NCBI GenBank assembly: GCA_964387205.1
Contig: CAYLVY010000003.1
Span: 17,006 to 79,565 of the forward strand
Direction of reading: 5' to 3'
Source of the DNA: an uncultured Draconibacterium sp.
Lineage (GTDB): Bacteria; Bacteroidota; Bacteroidia; Bacteroidales; FEN-979
Length of the DNA: 62,560 nt
Shown here: positions 845 to 20,027 of the stretch, piece by piece
How the letters are laid out: each line of letters opens with the position of its first letter
Numbering within the stretch: the stretch's first letter is position 1
Program-made: the position numbers and the translations under genes
Notes under the pieces: model-generated
Seen by the model: the letters and a program-made list of their open reading frames with translations, nothing else
The model's database searches: none
Told to the model about the DNA's origin: nothing

Positions 845-847
845 CAC

Positions 848-3217: not shown

Positions 3218-3249
3218 ATTTATGAACCAAAACCAATAACCCCGCTGCT

Positions 3250-4365: not shown

Positions 4366-5323
4366 ACGCGACAATGTGTTGATCCTGGGCGCTGCCGGAA
4401 TGGTTGGCAGCGCAATCCTGAGGAACCTGCTCAGCCAGGGATTTGAGCATATAATGGGGACCGATTACCGTTCGGTGCAGGCAAAATTTGAAGGGGTCAC
4501 CTACCGGCAGGTTGATTTGATGGATCCGGTGGCCACCAAAGCCCTTTACACGGAGGCGGCACCGGATTACGTGTTCGTCGCCGCAGCCAAAGTGGGAGGG
4601 ATCGTGGCCAACAACACGTACAGGGCCCAGTTCCTTTATGAAAACCTGCTGATCCAGAACAATGTGATCCACCAGGCTTATCTTTCCGGGGTAAAAAAGT
4701 TGCTTTTTCTGGGAAGCTCCTGTATTTATCCCAAAAATGCGCCGCAGCCCATCCGGGAGGAATACCTGCTCACGGGAACACTGGAATATACCAACGAACC
4801 TTATGCCATAGCAAAGATCGCAGGGCTGAAGATGTGTGAAAATTATAATCTGCAATACGGTACCAACTTCATAGCGGTGATGCCGACCAATATGTATGGC
4901 CCCAACGATAACTATGACCTGCAGAACTCCCATGTACTGCCCGCGCTCATCCGGAAATGCCATGAAGCCAAAGTGGCGGGAGCCCCGACGGTTACCATCT
5001 GGGGTACCGGCTCCCCGATGCGGGAGTTTATGCATGTGGACGACCTGGCCGCCGCCGTGGTTTTCCTGATGAACACATACAACGGAAACCGTTTTCTCAA
5101 CATCGGCTGGGGAAAGGACATCTCCATCAAAGACCTCGCTTACCTGATAAAGGAGGTTACCGGATTTAACGGTGAACTGGTATTCGACACCTCCAAACCC
5201 GATGGCACGCCGCGAAAACTGCTCGATGTTTCTCTTTTGACATCGCTCGGTTTCACTCCCTCCATCCCGCTTCGGGAAGGAATTGAACGTACCTATGCCG
5301 ATTTTCTGGCCAAACATGTCTGA
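4358..5323 (+). CDS. fcl: GDP-L-fucose synthase (GDP-4-keto-6-deoxymannose 3,5-epimerase/4-reductase)
   Basis: 321 aa. Motifs [27 protein letters not shown] and [11 protein letters not shown] match the Fcl/WcaG family. Overlaps the gmd stop by 8 nt. Confidence 0.92.
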
Positions 5324-6224: not shown

Positions 6225-6274
6225 GACCGTACGATGATTTGTTCTGAATATAAATCAACTGAAAATATAGTTCC

Positions 6275-7531
6275 ATGTCGAATGTTGTCATCAAACTCGA
6301 AAATGTTTCCAAGCAGTACCGGCTTGGCAGCGTGGGAACCGGTACCCTTAGCCACGACCTGAACCGGATGGTTGCAAGGATAAGGGGCAAAGAGGATCCG
6401 ACTGCAAAAGTGGGGGTTGCCAACCGCCTTGATACAGTGGATGGACGGTATGTGTGGGCCCTTCGCGACATCAACCTGGAGATCTGCGACGGGGAGGTGC
6501 TGGGAATTGTGGGCAAAAACGGCGCCGGCAAATCAACACTGCTTAAACTGATGTCGCGGGTTACAGCCCCAACCACCGGGAATATCAAAATCAAAGGGCG
6601 AATCGCCAGTTTGCTGGAGGTGGGTACGGGATTCCACCCCGAACTGACAGGCCGGGAGAATATATTTCTGAATGGCGCCATCCTGGGGATGACCAAACGG
6701 GAGATCAGCTCGAAATTTGACGAGATCGTGGAGTTTTCAGGGGTGAAGAAATATGTCGACACACCGGTCAAACGATATTCATCGGGCATGTATGTAAGGC
6801 TTGCATTCGCAGTGGCGGCACACCTGGAGCCTGAAATCCTTATCGTGGATGAAGTGCTTGCAGTGGGTGATGCGGAGTTCCAGAAAAAAGCGATCGGCAA
6901 GATGCAATCGGTTTCCCAGAGCGGCCGGACCGTTCTGTTCGTCAGCCACAACCTAACCGCGGTGGAACAGTTATGTACCAAAGGCATCCTGATCCAAAGC
7001 GGAAACCTGAAAATGGAGGGGAAGGTGCATGACATTACTTCGGCATACAAACAGATGACGGTGGATGAAAATGAACTGCGCCGCAGCGGGTCAAGAAACT
7101 TCGAATTTCTGGAATATCGCCTGACCAATATGGACGGAGCTGTCATTGATGAACTTTTTCTCGGAGATCATTTCAAAGTAGTGGCCACTGCCAGGGCCAA
7201 CGATCATATCGACTTTACCGATATGACCCTCGACATCAGGAACGATTCCAACGAATTTATCGGTCATGTCACCAACGCCGACGACGGATTTGAAATCAAA
7301 AAAAGCAGGAAGGGAGACAATATCACCGTAGAGGTGGTGGTGAAAAACATCTGCTTTGCACCGGCAACATACTATATATCACTCTGGCTTGGTAACTCAT
7401 ACGGCACATTTGATTATATCGAGAACTGTATCCGTTTCACCATCAAACAGGGCGATACCTTCATCCTGCGTCCATACCCCTTCGACAAAAGGGCCAAAAC
7501 CGTCCTTCAATCATCATGGAGTTTTAAATGA
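6275..7531 (+). CDS. wzt: Polysaccharide ABC exporter ATP-binding protein (Wzt-like) with a C-terminal extension
   Basis: Walker A GKNGAGKST, signature YSSGMYVRL and Walker B ILIVDEVL. About 150 extra C-terminal residues resemble Wzt_C carbohydrate-binding domains. Confidence 0.88.
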   Translation: MSNVVIKLENVSKQYRLGSVGTGTLSHDLNRMVARIRGKEDPTAKVGVANRLDTVDGRYVWALRDINLEICDGEVLGIVGKNGAGKSTLLKLMSRVTAPTTGNIKIKGRIASLLEVGTGFHPELTGRENIFLNGAILGMTKREISSKFDEIVEFSGVKKYVDTPVKRYSSGMYVRLAFAVAAHLEPEILIVDEVLAVGDAEFQKKAIGKMQSVSQSGRTVLFVSHNLTAVEQLCTKGILIQSGNLKMEGKVHDITSAYKQMTVDENELRRSGSRNFEFLEYRLTNMDGAVIDELFLGDHFKVVATARANDHIDFTDMTLDIRNDSNEFIGHVTNADDGFEIKKSRKGDNITVEVVVKNICFAPATYYISLWLGNSYGTFDYIENCIRFTIKQGDTFILRPYPFDKRAKTVLQSSWSFK

Positions 7532-8565
7532 GGATTATGGAAAAGCGACCTCTGTTGAGCGTACTTATGCCTGTTTACAACGGGAGAGCCTTCCTGAAGC
7601 CTGCCATGGACAGTATTCTGTCGCAGAATTTCGATAACTTCGAGTTGGTGATCATCAACGATGGTTCGACAGATGACAGCCAGCAAATCATCGATTCTTA
7701 TAAAGATCCCCGCATCGTGCCGGTTGTACAGAAAAACCAGGGGGTGGCCCGCTCGCTTAATAACGGATTGGATATTTGCCGGGGGAAATATGTCAGGCGG
7801 CACGATGCCGATGATGTATCGTTGCCCGGTGCATTTGAGATGCAGATCAAATTCCTCGAATCGAACCCGGAATATGTCATGGTATGCAACCAGGCGGCGT
7901 TCATGACAGAGAGAGGCAAACCGGCCTGGAAATACCGTTTGCCCAGGAACGATTTTTTCAGCGGGGGGAAACGGGTTGACCTTGGATTCGACCACTTCCG
8001 TGCGGACAGCACCACCCCGGTGATCCATGGAACAGCCTGTTACCGTAGGGAGGAGATCATCTCCATCGGAAAGTACAGAACCGCATTCATCGTATCGGAA
8101 GACAACGATCTCTGGATCCGGCTGATTGAAAAATACAAAATTGCCATCCTAGGAGAATGCACTTATCTGATCCGACTACACGGCACATCAGCCACGCGGA
8201 GGCATGCAGGAAAGATCCGCCATTTCAGGCAGCTTTTGCTGGATTATTCAAAGGAGCGCAGGGAGAAGGGCTCCGATCCGATCATGCGCGGTGAACCGTT
8301 GCCCCCGGCGCCACCCTCCGAAGCAGCGGAACCCGTCAGGAAAGAAGGAAAAGGAAAGGATTACAGGGAAGACCTGCAATACATATACGGATTGGTGGTC
8401 AATGCCGGTGACTGGACCGAGATCCGCAAATATAGTACCGAGATCATTCGTGATGGCTGGAAAGACCGCCGCACATGGAAAATGCTCACTTTTCCGATTT
8501 TAAGCGAACGATTGATCAAAACGGGTGTCTCACTGAAATCCTTCCTTAGGGGCAATAATCAATAA
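7528..8565 (+). CDS. Glycosyltransferase family 2
   Basis: N-terminal LSVLMPVYNG...VIINDGSTDDS and a DADD motif. ATGA overlap with wzt. An alternative ATG lies at 7537. Confidence 0.85.
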   Translation: MRIMEKRPLLSVLMPVYNGRAFLKPAMDSILSQNFDNFELVIINDGSTDDSQQIIDSYKDPRIVPVVQKNQGVARSLNNGLDICRGKYVRRHDADDVSLPGAFEMQIKFLESNPEYVMVCNQAAFMTERGKPAWKYRLPRNDFFSGGKRVDLGFDHFRADSTTPVIHGTACYRREEIISIGKYRTAFIVSEDNDLWIRLIEKYKIAILGECTYLIRLHGTSATRRHAGKIRHFRQLLLDYSKERREKGSDPIMRGEPLPPAPPSEAAEPVRKEGKGKDYREDLQYIYGLVVNAGDWTEIRKYSTEIIRDGWKDRRTWKMLTFPILSERLIKTGVSLKSFLRGNNQ

Positions 8566-8580
8566 TGGTGCTGAACAACT

Positions 8581-9615
8581 ATGGCTGCCTATACACCGCT
8601 CATATCCGTCATTATCCCCAATTTCAACCGGGGAGACCTGCTGTGTGAAACCCTGAAGTCGTTACAGGAACAATCGTACCGGAACTGGGAGGCATGGGTG
8701 GTTGACGACGGGTCGGAGGATGACAGCGCCGAAGTGGTACAGTCCATGACCACTGCCGATCCGAGGATACACTACATCCGGCGGAACAGGGAGCCACGCG
8801 GGGCACCGGTGTGCCGGAATATCGGGATAAACGTTTCGCGCGGGGATTTCCTTATCTTTCTCGATTCCGATGACCTGTTGGCCCCCCACGCCATGCTTCA
8901 GCGTACACAGGCCATACTGCAGCACCCCGATCATGATTTCTGGGTTTTTCCCATCCTGATGTTCAGGAACCGGCCCGAAGACGGGAAAATGCTTTGGAAT
9001 ATCGACAATGGTAAACCCGATCTCCACCGGTTTCTGATACTGGATGCTCCATGGCAAACTTCCGGGCCGATCTGGCGTAGAAGTGCAGTGGATAAAACCG
9101 GTGGATTTACCGAGGGCCTTGCCTGCTGGCAGGATGTCGATTTTCACCTTAAAGCCTTAATTGCCGGATTGAAGGGATTGAAATGCTACGATCTTCCCCC
9201 CGATGTCTGGTACCGGCAACATGAGACCGGAAGCATCAGCCAGGGAGAGATCAGTTCCCCGGCCAAACTAAAAAGCCGGTTCGACATTTTCCGGAGCCAC
9301 ACATTGGCCCTCACCGCGGAAAGCAGGCCGCCTGATCCCGGATTTATCATGGATGATCTTCGCCTGCTGGGCGGAAACATTGCCATTGGTGCCGCCAGGA
9401 CACTTCAGGGATCTATTTGCCGGGAGGTCATTGATTTCGGGGTCAATTATGGAGTATTCCTGCCCCCGCATACAGCGCAACTTATTCGTATCCTGCGGTT
9501 TTATCAGTTACGACTGAACCGTATCCCGTTCATGGACCGGCGTATCCGGCAAATCACCCGCCAGTACCGGCAGGATTCCAATATTGGTCGTCACCCTTAC
9601 CAAAAACCAGCCTGA
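8581..9615 (+). CDS. Glycosyltransferase family 2
   Basis: ISVIIPNFNR...VVDDGSEDDS and a LDSDD motif. Confidence 0.85.
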   Translation: MAAYTPLISVIIPNFNRGDLLCETLKSLQEQSYRNWEAWVVDDGSEDDSAEVVQSMTTADPRIHYIRRNREPRGAPVCRNIGINVSRGDFLIFLDSDDLLAPHAMLQRTQAILQHPDHDFWVFPILMFRNRPEDGKMLWNIDNGKPDLHRFLILDAPWQTSGPIWRRSAVDKTGGFTEGLACWQDVDFHLKALIAGLKGLKCYDLPPDVWYRQHETGSISQGEISSPAKLKSRFDIFRSHTLALTAESRPPDPGFIMDDLRLLGGNIAIGAARTLQGSICREVIDFGVNYGVFLPPHTAQLIRILRFYQLRLNRIPFMDRRIRQITRQYRQDSNIGRHPYQKPA

Positions 9616-10599
9616 ATGGAAACTGACGCCACCAATCCCAGAATATCCGTGATCATACCGGTAAAAAACGGCGCCGATACCATCCGTGCCTGCCTTGAGG
9701 GGATATTTTCGCAAACCCTTCGTGATCATCTGGAGGTGATCGTGATCGACTCCGGTTCTTCCGATGGCACGATGCAAATCCTGCAGGAATACCCGGTCAG
9801 GGTACACCAGATTCCACCCGGAGAGTTCAACCATGGAGATACCCGGAACCTGGGGGTTAAGCTGTCCCGCGGGGAGCTGGTGGTCATGACGGTGCAGGAT
9901 GCCACTGCCACCTCCCCGGAATGGCTGGCCATGATGGCCGGACACTTCGCCGATCCCACAATAGCCGGCGTATGCGGTCAACAAATCGTAAGGCACGATC
10001 CCGATAAAAATCCACTCCAATGGTTCATCCCGGCATCGGAGGCCCGGCCGGAACGGATCCATTTCCCCGATCCTGACTTGTTCCGGAAACTGCCCGGCAG
10101 GCAACAGCACCCATACTGCAACTGGGATGATGTAAATGCCATGTACCGCAAGACAGCGCTGGAAGAACTTCCTTTCCGCCGGCTCATGTTTTCGGAAGAT
10201 ACACTCTGGGCGCGGGATGCCCTGTCCAGGGGAATGACCCTGGTGTATGACTACCGGGCACGGGTATACCACTACCACCATCAGCCATTCAAATTTTATT
10301 TCAAACGAACCTACATCATTCTTTATCAGAATTATAAATTCTATAATTACATCCGTTACCCGAAAAATCCCCTGACCCATATTCCGCTGATTATCATCAG
10401 ACTTATGAGGAAGAAACTACGCTTTCGGGAGAAGGGGCGATGGATCGGGTACAACCTCTCCCTGGTCGGAGCCTCCTGGTCAGCCGCCCTGTTGTTTGCA
10501 CTGAATGCATACCTCCGGGGAATAAAAGGTGTGGAGTCGTCACAACAGTATTTTGTCGGATATCCCCCGCAGGGGGGACAAATGAAACCCAAAAAATGA
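9616..10599 (+). CDS. Glycosyltransferase family 2
   Basis: ISVIIPVKNG...VIDSGSSDGT. The start codon directly abuts the preceding stop. Confidence 0.8.
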   Translation: METDATNPRISVIIPVKNGADTIRACLEGIFSQTLRDHLEVIVIDSGSSDGTMQILQEYPVRVHQIPPGEFNHGDTRNLGVKLSRGELVVMTVQDATATSPEWLAMMAGHFADPTIAGVCGQQIVRHDPDKNPLQWFIPASEARPERIHFPDPDLFRKLPGRQQHPYCNWDDVNAMYRKTALEELPFRRLMFSEDTLWARDALSRGMTLVYDYRARVYHYHHQPFKFYFKRTYIILYQNYKFYNYIRYPKNPLTHIPLIIIRLMRKKLRFREKGRWIGYNLSLVGASWSAALLFALNAYLRGIKGVESSQQYFVGYPPQGGQMKPKK

Positions 10600-10603
10600 T
10601 CGT

Positions 10604-11494
10604 ATGACCGAAACAGCATCTCCAATGGTGAGCGTCCTGATGACGACATATAACCGCGAAAAGTACCTGGAACAGGCGGTCAGGAGTGTTCTGGCATCTA
10701 CATTCAAAGATTTTGAACTGATCATCGTGGATGATCAGTCAAAAGACCGGAGCCTCTCAATGGCAAGGGAACTCGCCGCCGAAGATTCCCGCATACGCGT
10801 GATCCTCAATGAGAAAAACCTCGGGGATTATCCCAACCGCAACAAAGCTGCCAGCCTCGCCCGGGGAAAATACCTGAAATACGTGGATGCCGATGACCTG
10901 ATCTATCCGACAGGCCTGCAGGTACTCGTGGATGGTATGGAAAGGTTTCCTGAGGCAGGTTACGGCTTGGGGTCGCTCCCGCAGGATAAATTCCAGATCT
11001 TTCCTTTCATGCTCTCGCCCTGCGAAGCTTACCAACGGCACTATTTTCAGGAACAATTGTTCCACAAGGCTCCGTTGTCAGCTATCATCAAAAAAGATGC
11101 TTTCGATGCAGTGGGGGGATTTTCCGGACGGAGGTATCTCGGTGATTTTGAAATGTGGCATATGCTGTCGGCACGGTTCCCGGTGGTGCTGATGCCCCAT
11201 GGCGTGGTATGGTACCGCGAACATGAGGAACAGGAGATGCAGCACAACCGCACCGATCTTACCGTTCCTTTCAAATACCTGCAATGTTCCGAAGAGATGA
11301 TCAAAAGTTCCGGATGCCCGTTGCCGGAAGAAGACCGGAACCGCGCCCTGCAGAAAATACAATGGAACATGGCCCGGTACATCCTCGGCGTCGGGAAAAA
11401 CCATTCACGCAAGATCATGCACGAACTGAGGAAACAAACCCCGTTCTCCTATCTGACCCTGGTCATCCTTGCCCGAAATAAACCCCCGTTTTAA
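10604..11494 (+). CDS. Glycosyltransferase family 2
   Basis: [14 protein letters not shown]...[10 protein letters not shown] and a VDADD motif. Confidence 0.85.
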
Positions 11495-11504
11495 TTTTAC
11501 GGTT

Positions 11505-12284
11505 ATGAAAACCTTTGTTAACATTATCAGTCTCAAACTAATGTACTTCCGGTACCTTGGGGTCAGGTTTGCCCGCTTTCTGTACTGGAACCTGCGCCTG
11601 GCCCGGTCGGAAATGGGAAAAGGAGTCAATATCCACTTCCCGGTAATCGTGGAGGGAAGCGGAAAACTGACCATTGGTCCGGGAGTGGAGCTGATGAAAC
11701 GCTGCTCCATCGGACTGTCACCCGGCAGCCGGGTCATCCTAGGCGAAGGATCTCGGATCCATCCGGAAGCCAATATTCACGCTGGTAAAGATGCCACCAT
11801 CAGCCTGGGCAAAAAGTGCGCTATCCTCACCCGTGCCATCGTCAGGAATGGCCGAGGGGTGGAGATGGCGGACGGAAGTTCCGTTTCATCCTACTGCAAT
11901 ATTTTCCCAAGGGAACCAGGGTACGATGGACGGTTGATCATCGGGAAAGGCAGCAATATCGGGGATAACACCATCATCGACACCAGCGACGATGTAATCA
12001 TCGGAGAACAGGTGGCCCTGGGGCCATTCGATATCGTCTACACCCATGACCACGATTACCGGGCCGACAGCTTTGCCGCCTGGAAAGGCGGCGTCCATAC
12101 CGGAAAAGTGGTCGTGGAGGATGGCGCATGGGTCGGGGCGCGCGTCACGCTGCTCCCTGGTGTCACCATCGGAAAACGTGCCATCGTGGCAGCCGGTTCA
12201 GTAGTTACCAAAGACGTGGCCCCCGGCGATATCGTGGGAGGTATTCCTGCGAAGTCATTATTAAAAAAGGAGAGGCATGAGTAA
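11505..12284 (+). CDS. Hexapeptide-repeat (LbH) O-acetyltransferase
   Basis: C-terminal [41 protein letters not shown] is typical of WcaF/LacA-type transferases. The start is refined to the ATG at 11505. The ORF track begins at 11469, inside the previous gene. Confidence 0.8.
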
Positions 12285-13263
12285 TCCCCGACCTTTGGTA
12301 TCGGTGGTAATCCCGGCCTACAAGGCGGAATCGCTCATCGCGGAAACCCTCGCCTCGGTGAGGGACCAGCAGCATGAGCCGCTGGAGGTTTTCGTGATCG
12401 ACGATGGTTCCCCTGACCAGACGGCAAAGGTTGCCCGGGGATTCGTTTCCGGTTCCATCCGGGTGATCGAACAGAAAAACAGCGGTGCCTGCGTGGCCCG
12501 GAATCTGGGACTCTCGCTCAGCAAGGGCAAATACATACAGTTTCTCGACGCCGATGATGTGCTGAGCCCCGATAAGATCGCGTCACAGGTTGATGTGCTG
12601 GAGCATAACCCGGGCTGCCTGGGCGTCTCGCCAACGGTTCATTTCATGCACGGAGAAGAGTACCTCAAAATGTCGCCGCGGGATGAATCATTCTGGATCC
12701 ACGACTCCGATGATCCGGTCGGTTTCCTCGTCAGGTTATACGGCGGCAATGGTCCGCGGTGGATGGTTCAAACCAGCGCCTGGCTTACCCCGAAATCGAT
12801 CACCGATACCATCGGCCCCTGGAATGAAAAGCTGCTTCTTGATCAGGATGGTGAGTATTTTGCACGGGCTGTCCTCGCTTCACGCGGGATCAGGACCACG
12901 GGAGGTATCAACTATTACCGGCGGTTTTTCCATGGAGGCAGCATCTCAGGCAAAGCCAACCGGAAGGAAAACCTCGAAAGCGCCCTGCTCGCCCTGAACC
13001 TGAAGGGGGGATACCTGGGACAACATACCCAATCGGAGCAGTACCGTAAGGCAATGGCTACCCTTTATATGGAGATCGCTGTCAATGCCTATCCCCGGTT
13101 TCCCGACCTGGTCAGGATCTGCGAGGAAGCTGTTGCCCGTACCGGTAAAAAGCCGGAAATTCCGGTATTGGGAGGTTCCATAATCGAAATGACCAGAAAA
13201 ATGTTCGGATGGAAAAGGGCCAAGGATTTCCGGCGGCTGATCCATACGCTGGTCAAACGTTAA
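12277..13263 (+). CDS. Glycosyltransferase family 2
   Basis: [11 protein letters not shown]...[10 protein letters not shown] and an LDADD motif. Overlaps the previous gene by 8 nt. Confidence 0.85.
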
Positions 13264-13270
13264 TATTAAC

Positions 13271-14512
13271 ATGAGAAAAAAAATATGTATCCTCACCCAA
13301 AGTCATCTCTGCCGCAATCCGCGCGTGGTCAAGGAGGCACTTGCCCTCAGCCGGGCCGGACATGAGGTGGTGGTCCTGACTACATTCACCTATCCCGACC
13401 TTTTGGAACAGGATCAACGTTTACTGGATGGATCGGGGGTTACCCTGAAAGGGGTGGTGAATATGATCCCTGCACAGGCAGGCGCCGCCTACCGTTTCAG
13501 GGAGCGACTGATCCGCCGTCTGGCCGGGGAGGCTATCGCCAGGTTTTCCCGGGAAAATGTCTATGCCCTTGGATACGATTACCGGCGCAACCTGAAAGCT
13601 GCCCTGGCGGAAAAGGCCGACCTCTATACCTGCCATCAGGAGATCAGCACAGTAATCGGATGCCGGCTGATCCGAAAAGGGAAAACTGTGGCTTTTGATT
13701 TTGAAGACTGGTATTCCCACGACCTCCTACCGGCGGCCAACCGGACACGTCCGCTGAAATTGCTTGAAAAACATGAAAAGATCGCCTTGCGGGAAGGAGT
13801 ACTCTCCTACACTACTTCCTGTTCCATGGGGGAGGCATTGGGCAAATTCGCCGGCGTACCGCCACCGAAGGTTTTACTGAACGCCTTTCCTTTTTCCGAC
13901 CGCGACCAACTCGACCACCGGTTTACCGACAGGGAAGACCAGGAATTGCCCTCCATTCACTGGTATTCACAAACCATCGGCCCGGGCAGGGGGATCGAAT
14001 TCCTGACCGATTGCCTCGGGGATGTCATCACACCGGTTGAACTTCATCTTCGGGGGAACCTGTTTGGGGATTTTCGCGAGGAGATCGTCCGGAGATTTCC
14101 GGCCGGGCGTGGGCACCGGCTATACTTTCATCCGCTGGTTTCGCCGGGAGAGTTGCTTTCCCGCATTGCGGAACACGATATCGGACTTGCAACCGAAGAG
14201 TACACCCCCGACAGCCGGAACCTTACCATCACCAACAAAATTCTGCAATACCTGCAGGCAGGGATCGCGGTGGTGGCCACCGATACCTCGGGACAAAAGG
14301 AGGTGGCGCAGAAGGCCCCGGATGCTGTGTTTGTTTACCGAAACGGCGACCGGAACGGACTTGCCAATGCCCTGAACCACCTGCTGAACGACCGTGATAA
14401 ACTTCAGCAAGCCAAAGCTGCCGCATTGACGGCTGCCCGGGAAATCTTCTGTTGGGAAACACAGGAACCTTTACTGGTAAAATGGATTGATCATATTTTG
14501 AAAAAAGGATGA
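13271..14512 (+). CDS. GT-B fold glycosyltransferase (GT4-like)
   Basis: 413 aa. The C-terminal half has an E-x7-E-like region (EEYTPDSRNLTITNKILQYLQAGIAVVATD). Confidence 0.7.
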   Translation: MRKKICILTQSHLCRNPRVVKEALALSRAGHEVVVLTTFTYPDLLEQDQRLLDGSGVTLKGVVNMIPAQAGAAYRFRERLIRRLAGEAIARFSRENVYALGYDYRRNLKAALAEKADLYTCHQEISTVIGCRLIRKGKTVAFDFEDWYSHDLLPAANRTRPLKLLEKHEKIALREGVLSYTTSCSMGEALGKFAGVPPPKVLLNAFPFSDRDQLDHRFTDREDQELPSIHWYSQTIGPGRGIEFLTDCLGDVITPVELHLRGNLFGDFREEIVRRFPAGRGHRLYFHPLVSPGELLSRIAEHDIGLATEEYTPDSRNLTITNKILQYLQAGIAVVATDTSGQKEVAQKAPDAVFVYRNGDRNGLANALNHLLNDRDKLQQAKAAALTAAREIFCWETQEPLLVKWIDHILKKG

Positions 14513-15807
14513 CCATGAAACATCTCCTGATCATCTCCCCTAATTTTCCGCCTATCAATGCTGCCGATATGCACCGTGTCAGGCAGAGCCTTCCCTATTT
14601 TCCTGAAATGGGGTGGAAAGCGACCGTGGTGGCTGTGGAACCCGGATTTGTTGAGATGAGTGAAGATCCGTTGCTGCTGAAAACCCTGCCCGGTGACACG
14701 GAAATTATCCGCATCCCTGCCTGGAAACCGGAAAAGACCCGGAAGTTCGGGTTGGGAAACCTGGGCTACCGTTCCCTTTACTCCTATTGCAAAACCTGCA
14801 GCGAACTGATCCGCCGGAACCGCTATGACCTGATCTATTTCTCCACCACGGCCTTTCCCGTCATGGTGCTGGGAAGGTATTGGAAACAGCGTTTTGGTAT
14901 CCCTTTTATTATCGACATGCAGGATCCCTGGCGGAATGACTTTTATCTCGACAAACCCAGGAACGAGCGCCCACCCAAGTTCCGGATCGCCTACACGATG
15001 GATAAATACATGGAGCGTTATGCCATGCAGAAGGTGGATGGCATCGTGTCGGTTTCCGCGGGTTATCCGAAAACCCTTTCAGAACGTTATCCGCGCATCC
15101 GCCCGGAGATGTGCACCGTGATCCCTTTTGGCGGGGCTTCCGTTGACTTTGACATCCTGGATACTACAACGATCGACAATCCCCTGTTCCGTAAAAATGA
15201 AAAAAACATCAATATCGCTTACATAGGCAGGGGCGGACACGACATGGCCCTCGCCACCGGCAGTATGTTTCGGGCGGTCCGGGAGGGGCTTGACAGGGAA
15301 CCGGGGCTTTTTTCCCGGTTGCAGTTCTTTTTTGTCGGCACCAGTTACGCCGCCGATGGCATGGGACAAAAAACCATTGAGCCGGTCGCGGAAAAATGGG
15401 GCGTTGCCGGTCAGGTGACGGAGATCACCGACAGGCTCCCCTATTTTACTGCCTTACAGGTACTGAGGGATGCTGATATGCTCTTTATTCCGGGGTCGAC
15501 CGATGCCCAGTACACCGCATCCAAACTCTATCCCTATATTCTTGCCTCAAAACCACTTATCGCTGTTTTCAATGAAAACAGCAGCGTGGTGGAGATCCTG
15601 GCCAGAACCCGAGCCGGCGCCTGTGTCACATTCACCAACGAAGAGACACCGGAAATGATAGCGCCCCGCGTCAGGGAGGCCCTCGGGGAGATAGCCGGGA
15701 GGCTGCCATTCACTCCGGCTACCGACTGGCAGGAATTCGAACCCTATTCCGCCAGAGAGGCGACACGACGGCAGGTAGAATTTTTCAACAAAATTACCGG
15801 ATCATGA
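14509..15807 (+). CDS. GT-B fold glycosyltransferase (GT4-like)
   Basis: 432 aa with GT-B architecture (LFIPGSTDAQYTASKLYPYILASKPLIAV). ATGA overlap with the upstream gene. Confidence 0.65.
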   Translation: MTMKHLLIISPNFPPINAADMHRVRQSLPYFPEMGWKATVVAVEPGFVEMSEDPLLLKTLPGDTEIIRIPAWKPEKTRKFGLGNLGYRSLYSYCKTCSELIRRNRYDLIYFSTTAFPVMVLGRYWKQRFGIPFIIDMQDPWRNDFYLDKPRNERPPKFRIAYTMDKYMERYAMQKVDGIVSVSAGYPKTLSERYPRIRPEMCTVIPFGGASVDFDILDTTTIDNPLFRKNEKNINIAYIGRGGHDMALATGSMFRAVREGLDREPGLFSRLQFFFVGTSYAADGMGQKTIEPVAEKWGVAGQVTEITDRLPYFTALQVLRDADMLFIPGSTDAQYTASKLYPYILASKPLIAVFNENSSVVEILARTRAGACVTFTNEETPEMIAPRVREALGEIAGRLPFTPATDWQEFEPYSAREATRRQVEFFNKITGS

Positions 15808-16970
15808 AACGAAAACTGGCTATCATCTCCTCCCATCCGATCCAGTACAACGCGCCGATGTTCGCCCTGTTGAACACCGACAAAGAATTGGATATCAGGG
15901 TTTATTACACTTGGAGTCAGAGCCGGGAATCATTATTCGATAAGGATTTCGGGAGGGTCATCGAGTGGGATATTCCATTGCTGGAAGGTTATCCATACGA
16001 GTTCATCGAAAATGTTTCCAAAACACCCGGCCCCGGATCCTATAAAGGGATTGTGTGCCCGGAACTCAACCGGCGCATCTCCTCGTGGGGCGCGGAGGCT
16101 TTGCTGGTTTACGGATGGAATTACCATGCCCACTACAATGCCATGAAGAATTTCAAGGGGAAGATCCCGGTATTTTTCCGGGGCGACTCCACCCTGCTGG
16201 ACGAAACGGGAGGCATCAAACAGGCGGCCCGGCGTGCCGTACTCCGGTATATTTACCGCAGCGCGGATTATGCATTTTATGTCGGGGAAAACAACCGTCA
16301 GTATTATCTCACCCATGGTTTTTCTCCCGAAAGGCTCTTTTTCGCCCCGCATGCCATTGACAACGAGCGTTTCAGCGACCCTGACGGCACCAAAGCAGCG
16401 GAAGCAGCCGCATGGCGGCATCAACTGGGCATCGGAGAACATGAACCGGTCGTTTTGTTCGTTGGCAAATTTGAGCCGAAAAAAAATCCCGACATCCTCC
16501 TCAGGGCGGCCGCGATGCTTACCGGGAACAACATACATTTTATCTTCGCAGGAAACGGCCTGCTGGAAAAAGAGATGAAGGAGCAGGCAGCCGGGCACAC
16601 CGGGATCCATTTCATCCCCTTTCAAAACCAAAGCAAAATGCCTGTGGTGTACCGTCTGTGCGATATACTCGCGCTTCCGTCAGCGGGGCCCGGCGAGACA
16701 TGGGGACTGGCGGTGAATGAAGCCATGGCCTGCGGCAAAGCAATTCTGGTCAGCAACAAATGCGGTTGCGCTGTCGATCTCGTGGTCCCCGGCCAAAACG
16801 GTTATATCATGGATGCCGGTAATCTCCAACAGTGCGCGGAATATATCGGTCAGATGACCCGTTCGAAAGATAGCCTGCGTGAAATGGGGGCATTTTCAAC
16901 CTCACATATTGCTTCCTGGTCGTTCGGTGAAGTGTGCAACAGTTTCCGCGACAATATTTTAAAGCACTGA
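15804..16970 (+). CDS. Glycosyltransferase family 4 (group 1)
   Basis: LALPSAGPGETWGLAVNEAMACGKAILVS is a classic GT4 EX7E region. ATGA overlap with the upstream gene. Confidence 0.85.
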   Translation: MKRKLAIISSHPIQYNAPMFALLNTDKELDIRVYYTWSQSRESLFDKDFGRVIEWDIPLLEGYPYEFIENVSKTPGPGSYKGIVCPELNRRISSWGAEALLVYGWNYHAHYNAMKNFKGKIPVFFRGDSTLLDETGGIKQAARRAVLRYIYRSADYAFYVGENNRQYYLTHGFSPERLFFAPHAIDNERFSDPDGTKAAEAAAWRHQLGIGEHEPVVLFVGKFEPKKNPDILLRAAAMLTGNNIHFIFAGNGLLEKEMKEQAAGHTGIHFIPFQNQSKMPVVYRLCDILALPSAGPGETWGLAVNEAMACGKAILVSNKCGCAVDLVVPGQNGYIMDAGNLQQCAEYIGQMTRSKDSLREMGAFSTSHIASWSFGEVCNSFRDNILKH

Positions 16971-16979
16971 AATCATACC

Positions 16980-18389
16980 ATGTATATCTCCCATCGAAGT
17001 ATCCGTCTGGTAGCGATTGGCCTGGGAGTTTTCGCCTTTTTCGAACTCTTTACCGGCCTCTATTTCATGTCGGGAATCGGCGTAGGGCTCTTTGCCGCTA
17101 CGGCTGTGAAATTCTTCGAAGATCTTGGCAAACGGATCGAGATCCGTGATCTCATTGCTTTTATGTCGATACTTCAATGGGTGCTGGGGCCGGTACTGGC
17201 CTACAATGTACTGCCTTATGATGAACTCTATTACATGGCCGTTCCGGAAGCGCAGTATATGAACTACATCGTCCCCTTCTGTTTTATGATGATCCTGGGG
17301 CTCTATTATCCCCTGAAAAATGAGAGGATCATTGACGATGAAGATGTGGACAGGGTAAAAGTATATCTGGCCGCTCACCCCTGGCTGGGTTATATTTTTA
17401 TCGGCATCGGCCTCACGGCCGGATTTATCAGCAAGAGCCTGCCATCGAGCCTCACTTTCCTGATGTTTCTGGTCACCAACCTTCAGTATGTCGGAATTTA
17501 CATGGTATTGTTCGGTACGGCGAAATTCAAGTGGCTAATCTTCGGAGGTGTCATGGGAATGGCCACATTCGCCGCTGTTCTGCAAGGGATGTTCGGGGAA
17601 CTGGTGCAATGGTTTACACTCTCCTTCCTCGTCATTGCCATGGTGGTCAAAATCCCCATGTGGGGAAAAATCACCCTGATGGGGATCGGGATGTTCCTCA
17701 TCCTGCTGGTACAATCGACCAAAGAGGAATACCGCATGGCCACCTGGTATGCCACCAGTGATAAAACCAACGACCAGATCTACCGTGAGATCATCCAGGA
17801 AAGGTTGGCTTCTCCGGGGATGCTGCTGGAATCCAATGTCACCCAGAATATGGGGGCCCGTCTGAACCAGGGGTGGATCATTGCCCGCATCCTTAATTAC
17901 ATGCCCGAAAAGCAACCATTTGTAAGGGGCGAGACCATCAGTACCGCCCTGAGCGCCGCGCTGCTCCCCCGCATCCTTGCACCCGGCAAAATCAAAGCCG
18001 GCGGCAGGGCCAATTTTGAACGATTTACCGGTACCCCCCTGCCCGAAACTACCAGCATGGACATCTCCCTGGCCGGCGAGGGGTATGCCAATTTCGGCAC
18101 CATGGGAGGAATGGCCTTCATTTTTCTGGTCTCACTTTTTTATAACTGGGTAATAATCAATGTAATATCTCTTTCTAAAAAACATCCCACCCTGATCCTC
18201 TGGATACCATTTCTGTTTTTCCAGGTCATGAAAGCGGAGACCGATTTTGCCACTGTGATCAACTACCTGACTAAATCGGCGCTGGTCGCTTTCATGGTTT
18301 TTTACATCACCGGGGTGATCATGAACTGGAATAAAAAGCGAAAGTTTATCAGCGCCGCCCAAACCGATCCGGTCGGGAGCAACCCATGA
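16980..18389 (+). CDS. Polytopic membrane protein, Wzy-polymerase / O-antigen-ligase-like
   Basis: 469 aa with at least 10 hydrophobic helices. A large loop of about 100 aa (RLNQGW...SLAGEGYANFG) sits between the late helices, as in Wzy/WaaL-type proteins. No catalytic motif is assignable by eye. Confidence 0.55.
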   Translation: MYISHRSIRLVAIGLGVFAFFELFTGLYFMSGIGVGLFAATAVKFFEDLGKRIEIRDLIAFMSILQWVLGPVLAYNVLPYDELYYMAVPEAQYMNYIVPFCFMMILGLYYPLKNERIIDDEDVDRVKVYLAAHPWLGYIFIGIGLTAGFISKSLPSSLTFLMFLVTNLQYVGIYMVLFGTAKFKWLIFGGVMGMATFAAVLQGMFGELVQWFTLSFLVIAMVVKIPMWGKITLMGIGMFLILLVQSTKEEYRMATWYATSDKTNDQIYREIIQERLASPGMLLESNVTQNMGARLNQGWIIARILNYMPEKQPFVRGETISTALSAALLPRILAPGKIKAGGRANFERFTGTPLPETTSMDISLAGEGYANFGTMGGMAFIFLVSLFYNWVIINVISLSKKHPTLILWIPFLFFQVMKAETDFATVINYLTKSALVAFMVFYITGVIMNWNKKRKFISAAQTDPVGSNP

Positions 18390-19240
18390 CAGCGATCAGG
18401 CACGATAACCCGCACCTGATCGTCCTTCCGGCCTTCAACGAAGCGCAACAGATCGGGAAGCTGCTGGAAAAACTGATCGGCTTCCGTGACCATGTGCTGG
18501 TCGTGGATGATGGCAGTACCGATCGCACCCCGGAAATCATCCGAATGGCAGGATTCCGTTATTGCACCCATAATTCCCGGAAAGGGTTGCAGGCTGTATA
18601 TCTCACCGCGGAATCTTATGCCGCGGAACACGGGTATGCACGCATTGTGTCGATGGATGCCGACGGACAACATGATCCGGCTTTTCTGGATGGTTTTATT
18701 CATGGATACGTTAGTGATTATATGATCATCGGGAACCGCTTCCGCCATCCCGAAACGGTTCCTCCGTCCAAACTCGCTTCCAACCTCTTTGCCGTGCTGC
18801 TTTTCAGAGAGAAGCTCAACATCCGATTACCCGATGTAGCCTGCGGTTTCCGAAGCTGGCCGGCGGGAACCATCACGGCTATGACCCGCAAGGCAGATGA
18901 AGGATTCAGCGCATTTGAGATCATCTACCGGATGATCGTCAGCCACGCCATGGCGGGGAAAGGATTCGGAAATGTAGAAATTCCCGCCACCTATCTGCCC
19001 GGTCAGCCATTAACCACCCGGGCCACCGAGATCAAAGGGCTGCTCAGGAGTATCCCGGACTTTGAAAATGATGGTGACATTCCCGGAATCCTCGAATGTC
19101 TGGAACATCACCATGATTTTACCATATCTTTGCAGGGTTTTCACTTTATCGCCGGCCAGGCAGGTAATGACACCTGGCTTTTTCAGACCGATACGGAGAA
19201 GGCCATTGAATTTTTCCGCTTTGCGGGAACTGCAAAATAG
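18386..19240 (+). CDS. GT2 polyprenyl-phosphate glycosyltransferase-like (Dpm1/GtrB-like, soluble form)
   Basis: LPAFNEAQQIGKLL...VVDDGSTDRT...MDADGQHDP pattern. ATGA overlap with the upstream membrane protein. Confidence 0.7.
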   Translation: MTAIRHDNPHLIVLPAFNEAQQIGKLLEKLIGFRDHVLVVDDGSTDRTPEIIRMAGFRYCTHNSRKGLQAVYLTAESYAAEHGYARIVSMDADGQHDPAFLDGFIHGYVSDYMIIGNRFRHPETVPPSKLASNLFAVLLFREKLNIRLPDVACGFRSWPAGTITAMTRKADEGFSAFEIIYRMIVSHAMAGKGFGNVEIPATYLPGQPLTTRATEIKGLLRSIPDFENDGDIPGILECLEHHHDFTISLQGFHFIAGQAGNDTWLFQTDTEKAIEFFRFAGTAK

Positions 19241-19245
19241 AAGTC

Positions 19246-19932
19246 ATGTTTGAAAATATCGATAAACATCCTGCCGGTGAAACCATTCCATACCATGTGG
19301 GGATCATCCCCGACGGAGGACGGCGATGGGCAAAGGCACAGGGGGTTACCCTGGAGGAGGCTTACCTGCAAACCCGCCTGAGACTGCAGAAACTGACAGA
19401 GCGGTTGATTTACACTTCCGTGAAGGAGGTTTCGGTCTATCTCTCCAGTATTCAGAATTTCAGGCGCGGACCGGAAGATTTGATCCCTTATCTGAAATCG
19501 CTGGAATCATCATTCTCACAGGAGATCCCATTGATGGCCCTTCATCTTGACCTGAAAATAGTTATGGCCGGCGACCGGGACATCCTACCTTCCGGATTGA
19601 GACAATTGATCGAAAAGGTTGAAAATGAATCTGCAGGTCGTCAGAAAGCCCGGCTGAATCTTCTTATTGCCTACGACCCGTGGGAAGAACTCGCGGAAGC
19701 AATGAACCGCTGCCCGGACCCAACACGGCTCGCCGGTTATCTGCAGGTTTCCACCCCCGTGGACCTGATCATCCGGACCGGAGGGGCGCCGCTGCTCAGC
19801 AACTTTCTTCCCCTGCAATCGGGTTTTGCAAGGTTTTACTGCGTTGATAAACTTTTCAACGATTTCACCGCCGAAGATCTTCAGGACATACTCCATACCT
19901 TTTCCGGGTTGAACCGGCAGTTCGGAACGTGA
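19246..19932 (+). CDS. Divergent cis-prenyltransferase (undecaprenyl-diphosphate-synthase family paralog)
   Basis: HVGIIPDGGRRWA versus canonical HVAIIMDGNGRWA. SSIQNFRRGPEDL versus FSTENWxRPxxEV. IIRTGGAPLLSNFLPLQ versus IRTSGExRxSNFLxWQ. C-terminal NRQFG. Confidence 0.75.
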   Translation: MFENIDKHPAGETIPYHVGIIPDGGRRWAKAQGVTLEEAYLQTRLRLQKLTERLIYTSVKEVSVYLSSIQNFRRGPEDLIPYLKSLESSFSQEIPLMALHLDLKIVMAGDRDILPSGLRQLIEKVENESAGRQKARLNLLIAYDPWEELAEAMNRCPDPTRLAGYLQVSTPVDLIIRTGGAPLLSNFLPLQSGFARFYCVDKLFNDFTAEDLQDILHTFSGLNRQFGT

Positions 19933-19934
19933 GG

Positions 19935-20024
19935 CAGCCAGACCTTCCAGGTTTTGAAAACCCGGAAGGTCTTATTCCTCAGCCAGACCTTCCAGGTTTT
20001 GAAAACCTGGAAGGTCTTATTCCC
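19935..20024. repeat. Two tandem 45-bp units, each containing an 11-14 bp palindromic hairpin. Probable bidirectional terminator or REP-like element.
   Basis: The unit is CAGCCAGACCTTCCAGGTTTTGAAAACC[C/T]GGAAGGTCTTATTCC[T/C]. Copy 2 (stem 19986-19996 / 20006-20016) is a perfect palindrome; copy 1 has one stem mismatch. The repeat fills the 95-nt convergent gap between the prenyltransferase and the TonB receptor. Confidence 0.85.
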
Positions 20025-20027
20025 CGG

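What the first reader, a model, noticed from the sequence alone, without database searches (positions are those of the whole stretch)
16980..19932. Terminal three-gene module: polytopic membrane protein, Dpm1-like GT2 and a dedicated cis-prenyltransferase
The last three genes of the locus are coupled by a start/stop overlap at 18386 and a 5-nt gap at 19241-19245. A Dpm1/GtrB-type enzyme makes polyprenyl-phosphate-sugar donors. Such donors are consumed on the outer face of the membrane by polytopic transferases, as in the GtrABV and ArnC/ArnT systems.

A second, locus-specific cis-prenyltransferase suggests that a lipid carrier of particular chain length is made for this step. The 469-aa protein may therefore be the periplasmic-face transferase rather than a polymerase.
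Basis: inference. Interest (0 to 1): 0.6.

Follow-up and report, generated by a model that had tools for sequence, protein, structure and literature searches.

The report
Sugar-lipid synthase paired with own prenyltransferase
The last two genes of this surface-sugar locus are a conserved, sometimes fused pair (an enzyme that loads a sugar onto a lipid carrier, plus a second, private copy of the carrier-making enzyme). The 469-residue membrane protein in front of them belongs to the core of the locus and is not their dedicated partner.

Summary
All three ORFs, the ATGA overlap at 18386 and the 5-nt gap are real.

**Prenyltransferase.** The 228-aa protein is a second UppS paralog. A canonical uppS lies on another contig.

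**GT2.** The 284-aa GT2 keeps the hallmarks of polyprenyl-phosphate glycosyltransferases: DADGQH, an Arg equivalent to ArnC R128, and a basic residue on the first juxtamembrane helix. Its model matches ArnC best. It has no membrane anchor.

**The pair.** This GT2 family and short cis-prenyltransferases are an obligate pair. They are adjacent in every context sampled, including outside glycan loci, and are fused into single ~500-aa proteins in three cases.

**The 469-aa protein.** It is weakly Wzy-like, with no match to any solved fold. It always follows the upstream GT4 and co-occurs with Wzm/Wzt across phyla. It lacks the GT2/prenyltransferase pair in all 21 distant loci. The pair in turn occurs without it, usually beside a different uncharacterised membrane protein ("X") in mobile or defence-island-like regions.

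**Verdict.** "The 469-aa protein consumes that donor" is not.

Other first-stage readers flagged this divergent prenyltransferase on other DNA; none followed it up.

The parts
16980..18389 (+). MEM469: a 469-aa polytopic inner-membrane protein with about 12 helical spans and a large conserved loop (about residues 258-363) predicted to face the periplasm. It is weakly Wzy-like and is a core gene of the glycan locus.
   Evidence: - ORF. No Pfam or NCBIfam hit for the protein itself.
- 9 of 33 homologs hit PF14296 O-ag_pol_Wzy, best E 7.3e-6.
- Atlas structure neighbours are Wzy, WzyE and O_anti_polymase at TM 0.65-0.80.
- AlphaFold2 model: pLDDT 79, pTM 0.79. No Foldseek match in PDB or BFVD.
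- Family invariants R56, D57, E90, R252, R294, R303, E318, R331, K337, R348, E367, K418, E420 and D422; no invariant His.
- Follows the GT4c gene in 46 of 65 loci.
18386..19240 (+). GT2_284: a soluble GT-A glycosyltransferase of the polyprenyl-phosphate GT type (Dpm1/GtrB/ArnC-like). It has a family-specific C-terminal alpha/beta domain (about residues 194-284) and no transmembrane helix.
   Evidence: - PF00535, E 1.7e-18.
- Best NCBIfam hits are PpgS and AglJ, far below their cut-offs.
- Invariants D42, D91, D93, Q95, H96, R118, K129, N133 and D150.
- hhalign against E. coli ArnC: probability 98.7%.
- AlphaFold2 pLDDT 92; best PDB match ArnC 9bhe, E 5e-10, TM 0.57, followed by GpgS, MpgS and GtrB.
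- No hydrophobic span.
19246..19932 (+). cPT228: a short cis-prenyltransferase and second UppS paralog. It keeps D26, R30, S71, N74, R77, R194 and S202 (E. coli numbering). It carries H43Y, A69L, E198A, R200L, E213R and R242Q, and lacks residues 177-189.
   Evidence: - PF01255, 119 bits. TIGR00055 uppS scores 95.4 bits, below its cut-off of 109.55.
- Residue table against the housekeeping paralog.
- Best PDB profile match is 3ugs, the 225-aa C. jejuni UppS, which shares Y43, R29, A198 and the deletion.
- Housekeeping uppS found elsewhere in the genome.
15804..16970 (+). GT4c: a 388-aa GT4 glycosyltransferase and the constant upstream neighbour of MEM469.
   Evidence: PF00534/PF13692. Adjacent to the MEM469 homolog in 46 of 65 loci with enough upstream sequence, including Pontibacter, Vicingaceae, Chlorobi-labelled and Lentisphaerota MAGs.
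35..15807 (+). The rest of the co-directional glycan locus inside the window: Wza, Wzc-like protein, Gmd, epimerase/reductase, Wzm, Wzt with a Wzt_C domain, GT2 x4, hexapeptide acyltransferase, GT2, and GT4 x2.
   Evidence: Pfam scans. The same gene order is seen in about 30 Bacteroidales MAG loci.
19935..20024 (.). Two tandem copies of a roughly 45-bp hairpin-forming repeat in the convergent gap after cPT228. It marks the 3' end of the operon.
Evidence: Read directly from the sequence.

Best explanation
The three genes are two functional units that happen to be adjacent here.

**Unit 1: GT2_284 plus cPT228**
- This is a self-contained unit for making a lipid-linked sugar.
- cPT228 condenses IPP onto an allylic primer to give a private Z-polyprenyl diphosphate. 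The chain is possibly shorter than C55.
- GT2_284 is a soluble Pren-P-type GT-A enzyme held close to, or bound to, the prenyltransferase. It transfers one sugar from a nucleotide sugar to the phosphate head of that lipid. This presumably follows removal of one phosphate.
- In this locus the product would supply a side-branch or modification sugar for the exported glycan without drawing on the essential undecaprenyl-phosphate pool.

**Unit 2: MEM469 with the GT4 in front of it**
- This unit belongs to the conserved core of a Wzm/Wzt ABC-transporter glycan pathway.
- MEM469 most likely acts on the periplasmic face on the polyprenyl-diphosphate-linked glycan, in the manner of Wzy or WaaL (polymerising blocks or passing the chain to its final acceptor).

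**Shown:** the gene pair and its fusions, the paralogy, the conserved Pren-P GT residues and the synteny patterns.

**Inferred:** the chain length, the sugar, the mono- versus diphosphate acceptor, the consumer of the product, and the reaction catalysed by MEM469.
For: **The pair**
- A GT2_284-family gene lies immediately beside a short cPT in the Bacteroidales loci.
- The same holds in non-glycan contexts L086, L087 and L111-L119.
- It holds in 4 of 4 cPT representatives sampled from the cPT side. Those GT2 genes score 200-227 bits against the family HMM, against under 30 bits for other GT2s.
- Three natural GT2::cPT fusions exist (P0412, P0453, P0506). P0002 aligns at 30% identity over 266 residues to the N-terminal half of P0412.

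**Pren-P GT hallmarks in GT2_284**
- 91-DADGQH-96, compared with GtrB DADLQD, ArnC DADLQN and PfDPMS DADLQH (10.1101/2025.01.29.634835).
- ArnC is the best structural match.

**The prenyltransferase**
- Its catalytic core is invariant across the family.
- H43Y, G29R, E198A and the deletion are shared with a solved UppS, 3ugs.
- A canonical uppS lies elsewhere in the genome.
- NUDIX::cPT fusions fit a step that converts the diphosphate product to the monophosphate.

**MEM469**
- Wzy signals.
- A constant GT4c neighbour, with Wzt in the same locus in other orders and phyla.
Against: - No consumer of a polyprenyl-phosphate-sugar is identified in the locus if MEM469 is excluded.
- GT2_284 has no membrane anchor, unlike GtrB and ArnC.
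- GpgS and MpgS, which use a soluble phosphorylated acceptor, match its model almost as well as ArnC does.
- The IPP site of cPT228 is altered: R200L and E213R covary, and R242 is Q here. Ordinary chain elongation is therefore not assured.
- Two loci (L015, L016) have the GT2 but no cPT within 8 kb.
- The Wzy-like assignment of MEM469 rests on weak hits. Foldseek and hhalign against E. coli WzyE and WaaL found nothing.
- No biochemical data exist for any member.
Confidence: 0.55

Rival explanations
1. GT2_284 makes a polyprenyl-phosphate-sugar on the carrier made by cPT228. After flipping, MEM469 transfers that sugar to the exported glycan on the periplasmic face, as in GtrA/B/V or ArnC/ArnT.
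For: - MEM469 is the only polytopic protein with a large conserved periplasmic loop in the window's locus.
- The three genes are translationally coupled here and in L018. All three co-occur in 20 of 22 close Bacteroidales loci.
- The GT2 is Pren-P GT-like.
Against: - MEM469 homologs in 21 of 21 distant loci lack the pair.
- The pair occurs without MEM469 in at least 10 other contexts.
- In most relatives one to six genes separate MEM469 from the GT2.
- There is no GT-C fold match.
- No flippase gene (GtrA or ArnE/F type) lies in the locus. The only GtrA-like gene is on contig C20.
Confidence: 0.15
2. cPT228 is not a chain-elongating synthase. With its remodelled acceptor site it transfers a prenyl or polyprenyl group to a non-IPP acceptor, for example a phosphosugar or the product of GT2_284. 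The pair would then make a prenylated sugar by a new route.
For: - R200 becomes hydrophobic and E213 becomes Arg, and the two changes covary in about a third of the short-cPT clade. R242 is K or Q.
- MM_0014, a cis-prenyltransferase lacking the RXG arginine, O-prenylates alcohols (PMC8131916).
- Fusion to a GT2 suggests that a metabolite passes directly between the two active sites.
Against: - The same GT2 family also pairs with a 'type A' short cPT that keeps R200, E213 and RRG (P0404). The altered site is therefore not needed for the partnership.
- Three basic residues (R194, R213, K242 in most members) remain around the acceptor site, which suits a diphosphate such as IPP.
- The proton-relay residues S71 and N74 are invariant.
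Confidence: 0.12
3. GT2_284 is an ordinary cytoplasmic transferase that adds a residue, perhaps the chain-ending cap read by the Wzt C-terminal domain, to the lipid-linked glycan. cPT228 merely raises the carrier-lipid supply for a high-flux pathway.
For: - The locus has a Wzt_C domain but no recognised terminator (note e1-3809137).
- In Pontibacter an FkbM methyltransferase occupies the position after the WcaE-like GT2 where the pair sits in Bacteroidales.
- GT2_284 is soluble.
Against: - The pair and its fusions occur in regions with no glycan genes at all.
- The Pren-P GT-specific residues R118 and K129 are invariant.
- A simple supply role does not explain obligate adjacency or fusion.
Confidence: 0.1

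Closest known systems
Polyprenyl-phosphate glycosyltransferases: GtrB, ArnC and DPMS/Dpm1 (also PpgS and AglJ)
   Same: - GT-A fold and a DAD-x-Q-H motif.
- An Arg equivalent to GtrB R122 / ArnC R128, and a basic residue on the first juxtamembrane helix.
- ArnC is the best structural match and the best profile match.
   Different: - No transmembrane helices.
- An extra C-terminal alpha/beta domain of about 90 residues.
- Scores far below every NCBIfam equivalog cut-off.
- Always paired or fused with a cis-prenyltransferase, which none of the characterised enzymes is (my knowledge; no paper found).
Three-component glycan-modification systems: GtrA/GtrB/Gtr(type), ArnC/ArnE-F/ArnT, streptococcal GacI/J/K/L (from my knowledge)
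   Same: A Pren-P GT makes a lipid-linked monosaccharide that modifies a glycan after export. Such cassettes can be mobile.
   Different: - Those systems use the cell's own undecaprenyl phosphate, and they encode a flippase and a GT-C transferase.
- Here there is a private prenyltransferase and no recognisable flippase or GT-C.
- The membrane protein next to the pair is either MEM469 (a core locus gene) or the unrelated protein X.
Undecaprenyl diphosphate synthase (UppS), especially the short C. jejuni enzyme (PDB 3ugs)
   Same: The cis-IPPS fold and all core catalytic residues. Y43, R29, A198, the short length and the 177-189 deletion are shared with 3ugs.
   Different: - R200L, E213R, A69L and R242K/Q.
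- Below the TIGR00055 cut-off.
- Not the housekeeping copy.
- Sits in an operon with a GT2.
Specialised cis-prenyltransferase paralogs: M. mazei MM_0014, and M. tuberculosis Rv1086/Rv2361c (from my knowledge)
   Same: A second cis-prenyltransferase alongside the main carrier synthase. It is about 220 aa long with a weakened RXG motif. MM_0014 makes C25-40 products and its role is unknown (PMC8131916).
   Different: MM_0014 ends in TLGG and accepts DMAPP and alcohols. cPT228 keeps a (K/Q)-F-G ending and has a different pair of substitutions. No GT2 partnership is reported for those enzymes.
O-antigen polymerases and ligases (Wzy PF14296, WzyE, WaaL/Wzy_C)
   Same: About 12 helical spans, a large periplasmic loop after the ninth span rich in invariant Arg, and location in a glycan locus. 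There are weak PF14296 hits and Atlas structural neighbours.
   Different: - Highly conserved (46-93% identity across many genomes), unlike typical Wzy.
- Sits in a Wzm/Wzt locus without Wzx.
- No invariant His such as the WaaL catalytic histidine.
- No PF04932 hit.
- No detectable similarity to E. coli WzyE or WaaL.

Membership tests
Polyprenyl-phosphate GT-A glycosyltransferases (Dpm1/GtrB/ArnC) | GT2 GT-A fold with the metal-binding motif DAD-L/x-Q-[DNH] | tested here: met
   PF00535. 91-DADGQH-96 is invariant or nearly so in 36 family members. The motif is as listed for GtrB, ArnC and PfDPMS in 10.1101/2025.01.29.634835.
Polyprenyl-phosphate GT-A glycosyltransferases (Dpm1/GtrB/ArnC) | An Arg that binds the acceptor phosphate (GtrB R122 / ArnC R128) and a basic residue on juxtamembrane helix 1 | tested here: met
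   hhalign of A4 against E. coli ArnC gives probability 98.7%. It aligns invariant R118 with R128 and invariant K129 with K138, next to R137. The role of these residues is taken from PMC12698845.
Polyprenyl-phosphate GT-A glycosyltransferases (Dpm1/GtrB/ArnC) | Closest solved structures are Pren-P GTs | tested here: inconclusive
   ArnC ranks 1-6 (E 5e-10, TM 0.53-0.57) and GtrB also matches. GpgS and MpgS, which are retaining enzymes with a soluble acceptor, score nearly the same.
Polyprenyl-phosphate GT-A glycosyltransferases (Dpm1/GtrB/ArnC) | A transmembrane anchor (two helices in GtrB and ArnC, four in PfDPMS) | tested here: not met
   No hydrophobic span. The model ends in a soluble alpha/beta domain. 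Human DPM1 also lacks an anchor (my knowledge), so this does not exclude the activity.
Polyprenyl-phosphate GT-A glycosyltransferases (Dpm1/GtrB/ArnC) | Transfers a sugar from an NDP-sugar to polyprenyl phosphate | not testable with these tools
   Needs an enzyme assay.
Undecaprenyl diphosphate synthase (UppS, TIGR00055 equivalog) | Scores above the curated equivalog cut-off | tested here: not met
   95.4 bits against a cut-off of 109.55. All PRK148xx models fall far below their cut-offs. The superfamily model PF01255 is met at 119 bits against 27.
Undecaprenyl diphosphate synthase (UppS, TIGR00055 equivalog) | Catalytic and allylic-site residues D26, R30, S71, N74, R77, R194 and S202 | tested here: met
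   Invariant in 113 and in 40 family members.
Undecaprenyl diphosphate synthase (UppS, TIGR00055 equivalog) | IPP-site residues R200 and E213, and the C-terminal RXG arginine | tested here: not met
   Position 200 is L (88% of the family), position 213 is R (100%), and position 242 is K (87%) but Q in this protein.
Undecaprenyl diphosphate synthase (UppS, TIGR00055 equivalog) | Is the genome's housekeeping carrier-lipid synthase | tested here: not met
   A canonical UppS with every motif lies at G000:C53, scoring 294.7 bits.
GT-C glycosyltransferases (ArnT, PglB, Gtr type-specific) | GT-C fold recognisable against solved structures | tested here: not met
   Foldseek of the pLDDT-79 model against PDB gives a best E of 0.14 and TM under 0.2, with no GT-C entry among the hits. 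Foldseek is weak on all-helical membrane proteins, so this is not strong exclusion.
O-antigen ligase WaaL / Wzy_C (PF04932) | A PF04932 match and a conserved catalytic His in the large periplasmic loop | tested here: not met
   No PF04932 hit for any of 33 members. No invariant His in the family. hhalign against E. coli WaaL gives probability 0.1%. The genome has at least 8 true PF04932 proteins elsewhere.
O-antigen polymerase Wzy (PF14296) | Match to the family model | tested here: inconclusive
   9 of 33 homologs match, with best E 7.3e-6, but the window's protein does not. Atlas neighbours of a sister cluster are Wzy and WzyE at TM 0.65-0.80. hhalign against E. coli WzyE is negative.
O-antigen polymerase Wzy (PF14296) | Works with a Wzx flippase in a Wzx/Wzy pathway | tested here: not met
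   No Wzx-type gene lies in the locus. Wzm/Wzt are present here and near homologs in other orders and phyla.

The most novel reading that the evidence does not exclude
The GT2::cis-prenyltransferase unit may be an undescribed, mobile biosynthetic module. It would build its own, possibly short, polyprenyl carrier and glycosylate it on the spot, perhaps directly on the diphosphate product.

Together with the uncharacterised membrane protein X, it forms a three-gene system. That system is scattered through defence-island-like and mobile regions, next to TIR/SEFIR, SMEK, NACHT/STAND, HNH, toxin-antitoxin genes, integrases and transposases. It might serve in phage exclusion or another conflict function.

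The Bacteroidales glycan locus would have captured the two-enzyme core of that system.
Probability: 0.2. Interest if true: 0.8.

Novelty: new variant of a known kind. Interest (0 to 1): 0.6.

Why it matters
Lipid-linked sugar donors for surface-glycan modification are thought to be built on the cell's shared undecaprenyl-phosphate pool. Tying up that pool is harmful to the cell.

A widely distributed glycosyltransferase family that always travels with, or is fused to, its own prenyltransferase suggests another solution: a private carrier lipid. This would bear on three things:
- how glycan-modification cassettes move between genomes without poisoning cell-wall synthesis;
- which lipids carry sugars in Bacteroidota;
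- what the many unexplained second cis-prenyltransferases in bacteria and archaea do.

The fusions give a single polypeptide that can be assayed directly.

Separately, the work shows that a conserved Wzy-like protein is a constant of a Wzm/Wzt pathway across phyla. The textbook division into Wzy-dependent and ABC-dependent routes does not predict that.

Tried and rejected
- **Fold of MEM469.** Foldseek found no significant match against PDB or BFVD. The requested comparison with GT-C, Wzy and WaaL folds therefore gave no positive answer. The sequence profile against PDB was also empty.
- **Profile comparison.** hhalign of the MEM469 family against single E. coli WzyE and WaaL sequences gave nothing. 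One 13-column stretch places family-invariant R294 on WaaL R288, at 0.1% probability. I treat this as chance.
- **Defence libraries.** A PADLOC scan of the GT2, the cPT, the fusions, X and MEM469 returned no hits.
- **Phage carriage.** IMG/VR viral contigs hold only generic GtrB-like GT2s and no X homolog. The module is not evidently phage-borne.
- **Protein X.** It has no homolog in the window's genome and no informative Atlas neighbours.
- **Literature.** Searches for a GT2/cis-prenyltransferase pairing, for such genes in defence islands, and for the A69/L137 chain-length mutants found nothing usable. The A69L argument for a shorter chain rests on my memory only (Ko et al. 2001).
- **'Badly degenerate prenyltransferase' rejected.** Most of the unusual substitutions are shared with the solved C. 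jejuni UppS.
- **Clade structure.** 'Type B' prenyltransferases (non-Arg at 200, Arg at 213) are not one clean clade in a FastTree. The largest clade has 31 of 34 members of type B, with support 0.98.


Full report
**1. Observation**

The ATGA start/stop overlap at 18386-18389 and the 5-nt gap at 19241-19245 are both present.

Pfam calls the second protein Glycos_transf_2 and the third Prenyltransf. The first has no hit in Pfam or NCBIfam.

The genes end a co-directional locus:
- Wza, a Wzc-like protein, Gmd and an epimerase/reductase;
- Wzm, and Wzt with a Wzt_C domain;
- five GT2 genes, a hexapeptide acyltransferase and three GT4 genes.

The locus continues upstream of the window on the same contig. 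There it holds two GT4 genes, a second hexapeptide acyltransferase, a WcaE-like GT2 and a WecA-type initiating transferase, followed by response-regulator genes. The closest loci come from Bacteroidales MAGs labelled Prolixibacteraceae, Draconibacterium and Lentimicrobium.

**2. The prenyltransferase is a second paralog, less aberrant than it first looks**

The genome is a MAG of 362 contigs, about 96% complete. It has two PF01255 genes:
- a canonical UppS on contig C53 (294.7 bits) with every textbook motif;
- cPT228 (119 bits).

I compared 113 family members with the housekeeping copy. By motif, the housekeeping numbering coincides with E. coli's.
- Invariant: D26, R30, S71, N74, R77, R194 and S202.
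- Changed: N28G, G29R, R39L, H43Y (100%), A69L (81%), E198A, R200L (88%), E213R (100%) and R242K (87%; Q in this protein).
- Missing: residues 177-189.

The best solved match to the family profile is 3ugs, the 225-aa C. jejuni UppS. It also has R29, Y43, A198, a non-Arg at position 242 and the same deletion. The truly distinctive changes are the covarying pair R200 to hydrophobic and E213 to Arg, plus A69L.

A search of 1.84 billion representatives shows a large clade of 210-235-aa enzymes, nearly all with Y43. The clade splits mainly into two types:
- type A, with R200 and E213;
- type B, with a non-Arg at 200 and R213.

**3. The GT2 is a polyprenyl-phosphate-type transferase**

The family invariants include D42, D91, D93, Q95, H96, R118, K129, N133 and D150.
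- The motif 91-DADGQH-96 is the one listed for GtrB (DADLQD), ArnC (DADLQN) and PfDPMS (DADLQH) (10.1101/2025.01.29.634835).
- Profile comparison with E. coli ArnC gives 98.7% probability. It aligns R118 with ArnC R128 and K129 with K138, next to R137. R128/R137 in ArnC, and R122/K132 in GtrB, hold the undecaprenyl-phosphate head group. GtrB R122 is described as universally conserved in this class (PMC12698845).
- The AlphaFold2 model (pLDDT 92) matches ArnC best. GpgS, MpgS and GtrB follow closely.

Unlike GtrB and ArnC, the protein has no transmembrane helix. It ends in a family-specific alpha/beta domain.

**4. The GT2 and the prenyltransferase are one unit**

| Evidence | Result |
|---|---|
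| Bacteroidales glycan loci | The pair is present, separated by 0, 1 or 2 genes (an Acyl_transf_3 gene and/or an LruC-like DUF4114-DUF4842 gene) |
| Distant GT2_284 homologs, 30-33% identity (L086, L087) | The cPT lies right beside the GT2, in places with no glycan genes |
| Single polypeptides of about 500 aa (P0412, P0453, P0506) | Full-length GT2_284 homology followed by the cPT domain |
| Four short cPT representatives sampled from the cPT side (three type B, one type A) | All four have a GT2_284-family gene immediately upstream, scoring 200-227 bits against the family HMM; other GT2s score under 30 |

Two NUDIX::cPT fusions also exist. They would fit a step that converts the diphosphate product to the monophosphate acceptor (inference).

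Two exceptions, L015 and L016, have the GT2 but no cPT within 8 kb.

**5. MEM469 is not part of that unit**

I examined 80 genome loci that hold a MEM469 homolog.

| Test | Count |
|---|---|
| GT4c directly upstream, among loci with enough upstream sequence | 46 of 65 |
| Pair present in close Bacteroidales loci (at least 9 kb downstream) | 20 of 22 |
| Pair present in distant loci (Pontibacter, Vicingaceae, Robertkochia, Chlorobi-labelled, Lentisphaerota, Cerasicoccus, Gemmatimonadetes) | 0 of 21 |

- The Pontibacter locus has the same core order and ends with the WcaE-like GT2 and an FkbM methyltransferase.
- Wzt orthologs lie 14-25 kb upstream on the same strand in Pontibacter and a Vicingaceae chromosome, and probably in Robertkochia and Cerasicoccus.
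- In most Bacteroidales relatives, one to five genes separate MEM469 from the GT2. In this genome that block (GT4, GT4, hexapeptide acyltransferase, WcaE-like GT2) has moved upstream next to WecA.

**6. What MEM469 is**

- It is highly conserved: 46-93% identity among the 120 homologs listed, of 264 found.
- Many charged invariants cluster in a loop at about residues 258-363. With the N-terminus inside and nine preceding spans, that loop should face the periplasm (the topology is inferred).
- Nine of 33 homologs hit PF14296 O-ag_pol_Wzy weakly.
- Atlas structure neighbours of a sister cluster are Wzy, WzyE and O_anti_polymase families.
- There is no PF04932 hit and no invariant His, so it is not a WaaL by that family's marks.
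- The model (pLDDT 79) matches nothing in PDB or BFVD. Profile comparison with E. coli WzyE and WaaL is empty.

I therefore call it a Wzy-superfamily-like periplasmic-loop enzyme of an ABC-transporter glycan pathway. Its reaction is unresolved: polymerase of flipped blocks, or transfer of the chain to its acceptor.

**7. Side lead: a three-gene system outside glycan loci**

Where the pair or the fusion stands outside glycan loci, it sits next to a conserved protein of 300-400 aa, "X". X has an N-terminal soluble domain and three or four C-terminal membrane spans, and no Pfam or PADLOC hit.

Thirteen X homologs were found in metagenomes. Of the 13:
- six distinct loci (L111, L113, L115 with its duplicate L116, L117, L118, L119) carry the GT2 and the cPT beside X;
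- L108 is the same locus as L086;
- L112 shows the cPT at its contig end;
- L109 and L110 have neither;
- L114 and L120 are too short to tell.

The neighbours include:
- SEFIR/TIR, SMEK and DUF2806 proteins (L111);
- NACHT-HEAT, HNH and TnpB (L090);
- a STAND ATPase, integrases and transposases (L089);
- a PIN-Phd toxin-antitoxin pair (L086);
- Fic and a transposase (L087).

The module is absent from IMG/VR viral contigs. X is absent from this genome.

**8. Mechanism and verdict**

Most likely (confidence 0.55):
- cPT228 makes a private Z-polyprenyl diphosphate. A69L hints at a shorter chain, but this rests on my memory of the E. coli mutant work and was not verified here.
- GT2_284, held next to it, glycosylates the phosphate head.
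- The lipid-linked sugar then feeds a modification of the exported glycan without draining undecaprenyl phosphate.

The consumer of that sugar is unknown. MEM469 as consumer gets 0.15.

I found no paper describing a GT2/cis-prenyltransferase pair or fusion. Other first-stage readers flagged the same divergent prenyltransferase on other DNA, and none had followed it up.

Noticed in passing
L086:7079-9459, L087:8001-10524, L089:6736-9503, L090:6981-9518, L111:4466-6930: A conserved three-gene system made of an uncharacterised membrane protein X (300-400 aa, no Pfam or PADLOC hit), a GT2_284-family gene and a short cis-prenyltransferase (or a GT2::cPT fusion). It sits in mobile or defence-island-like neighbourhoods with TIR/SEFIR, SMEK, NACHT/STAND, HNH, toxin-antitoxin genes, integrases and transposases.
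   Followed up: partly
P0377, P0470 (proteins): Natural NUDIX::cis-prenyltransferase fusions, one of type B and one of type A. A fused Nudix hydrolase could turn the polyprenyl diphosphate product into the monophosphate in the cytoplasm.
   Followed up: no
L197:2146-3394: A GT2_284-family gene followed by two cis-prenyltransferase genes in tandem. The second scores 192.7 bits against the family HMM and is cut by the contig end.
   Followed up: no
G000:C3:10171-16963 (L105), just upstream of the window: The locus's WecA-type initiating transferase (394 aa, PF00953) and a block of GT4, GT4, hexapeptide acyltransferase and WcaE-like GT2 lie upstream of Wza. In relatives that block sits between MEM469 and the GT2. 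Two response-regulator-domain genes (169 and 522 aa) separate it from Wza, and a third (147 aa) lies at its upstream end.
   Followed up: partly
window 16980-18389 and homologs in L057, L079, L065, L082: The Wzy-like MEM469 family co-occurs with Wzm/Wzt-type ABC transporters, not with Wzx, in Bacteroidales, Cytophagales, Flavobacteriales and probably Verrucomicrobiota. It always follows the same GT4. This is a hybrid of the two textbook assembly routes.
   Followed up: partly
L026:16799-18877, L088:8953-10980: In Lentimicrobium-type loci a 675-692-aa LruC-domain protein (DUF4114 + DUF4842) is inserted between the GT2 (or the acyltransferase) and the prenyltransferase.
   Followed up: no
window 19935-20024: Two tandem copies of a roughly 45-bp hairpin-forming repeat fill the gap between the prenyltransferase gene and the convergent TonB-receptor gene.
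   Followed up: no
window 19929-20435: A 168-aa GTG-started ORF overlaps the stop of the prenyltransferase gene and the 3' end of the convergent 964-aa TonB-receptor gene. It has no Pfam hit and is probably not a gene.
   Followed up: no
L195:506-1642: A GT4 matching PF20706 ('GT4 in conflict systems') lies directly upstream of a GT2_284/cPT pair on a short metagenome contig.
   Followed up: no
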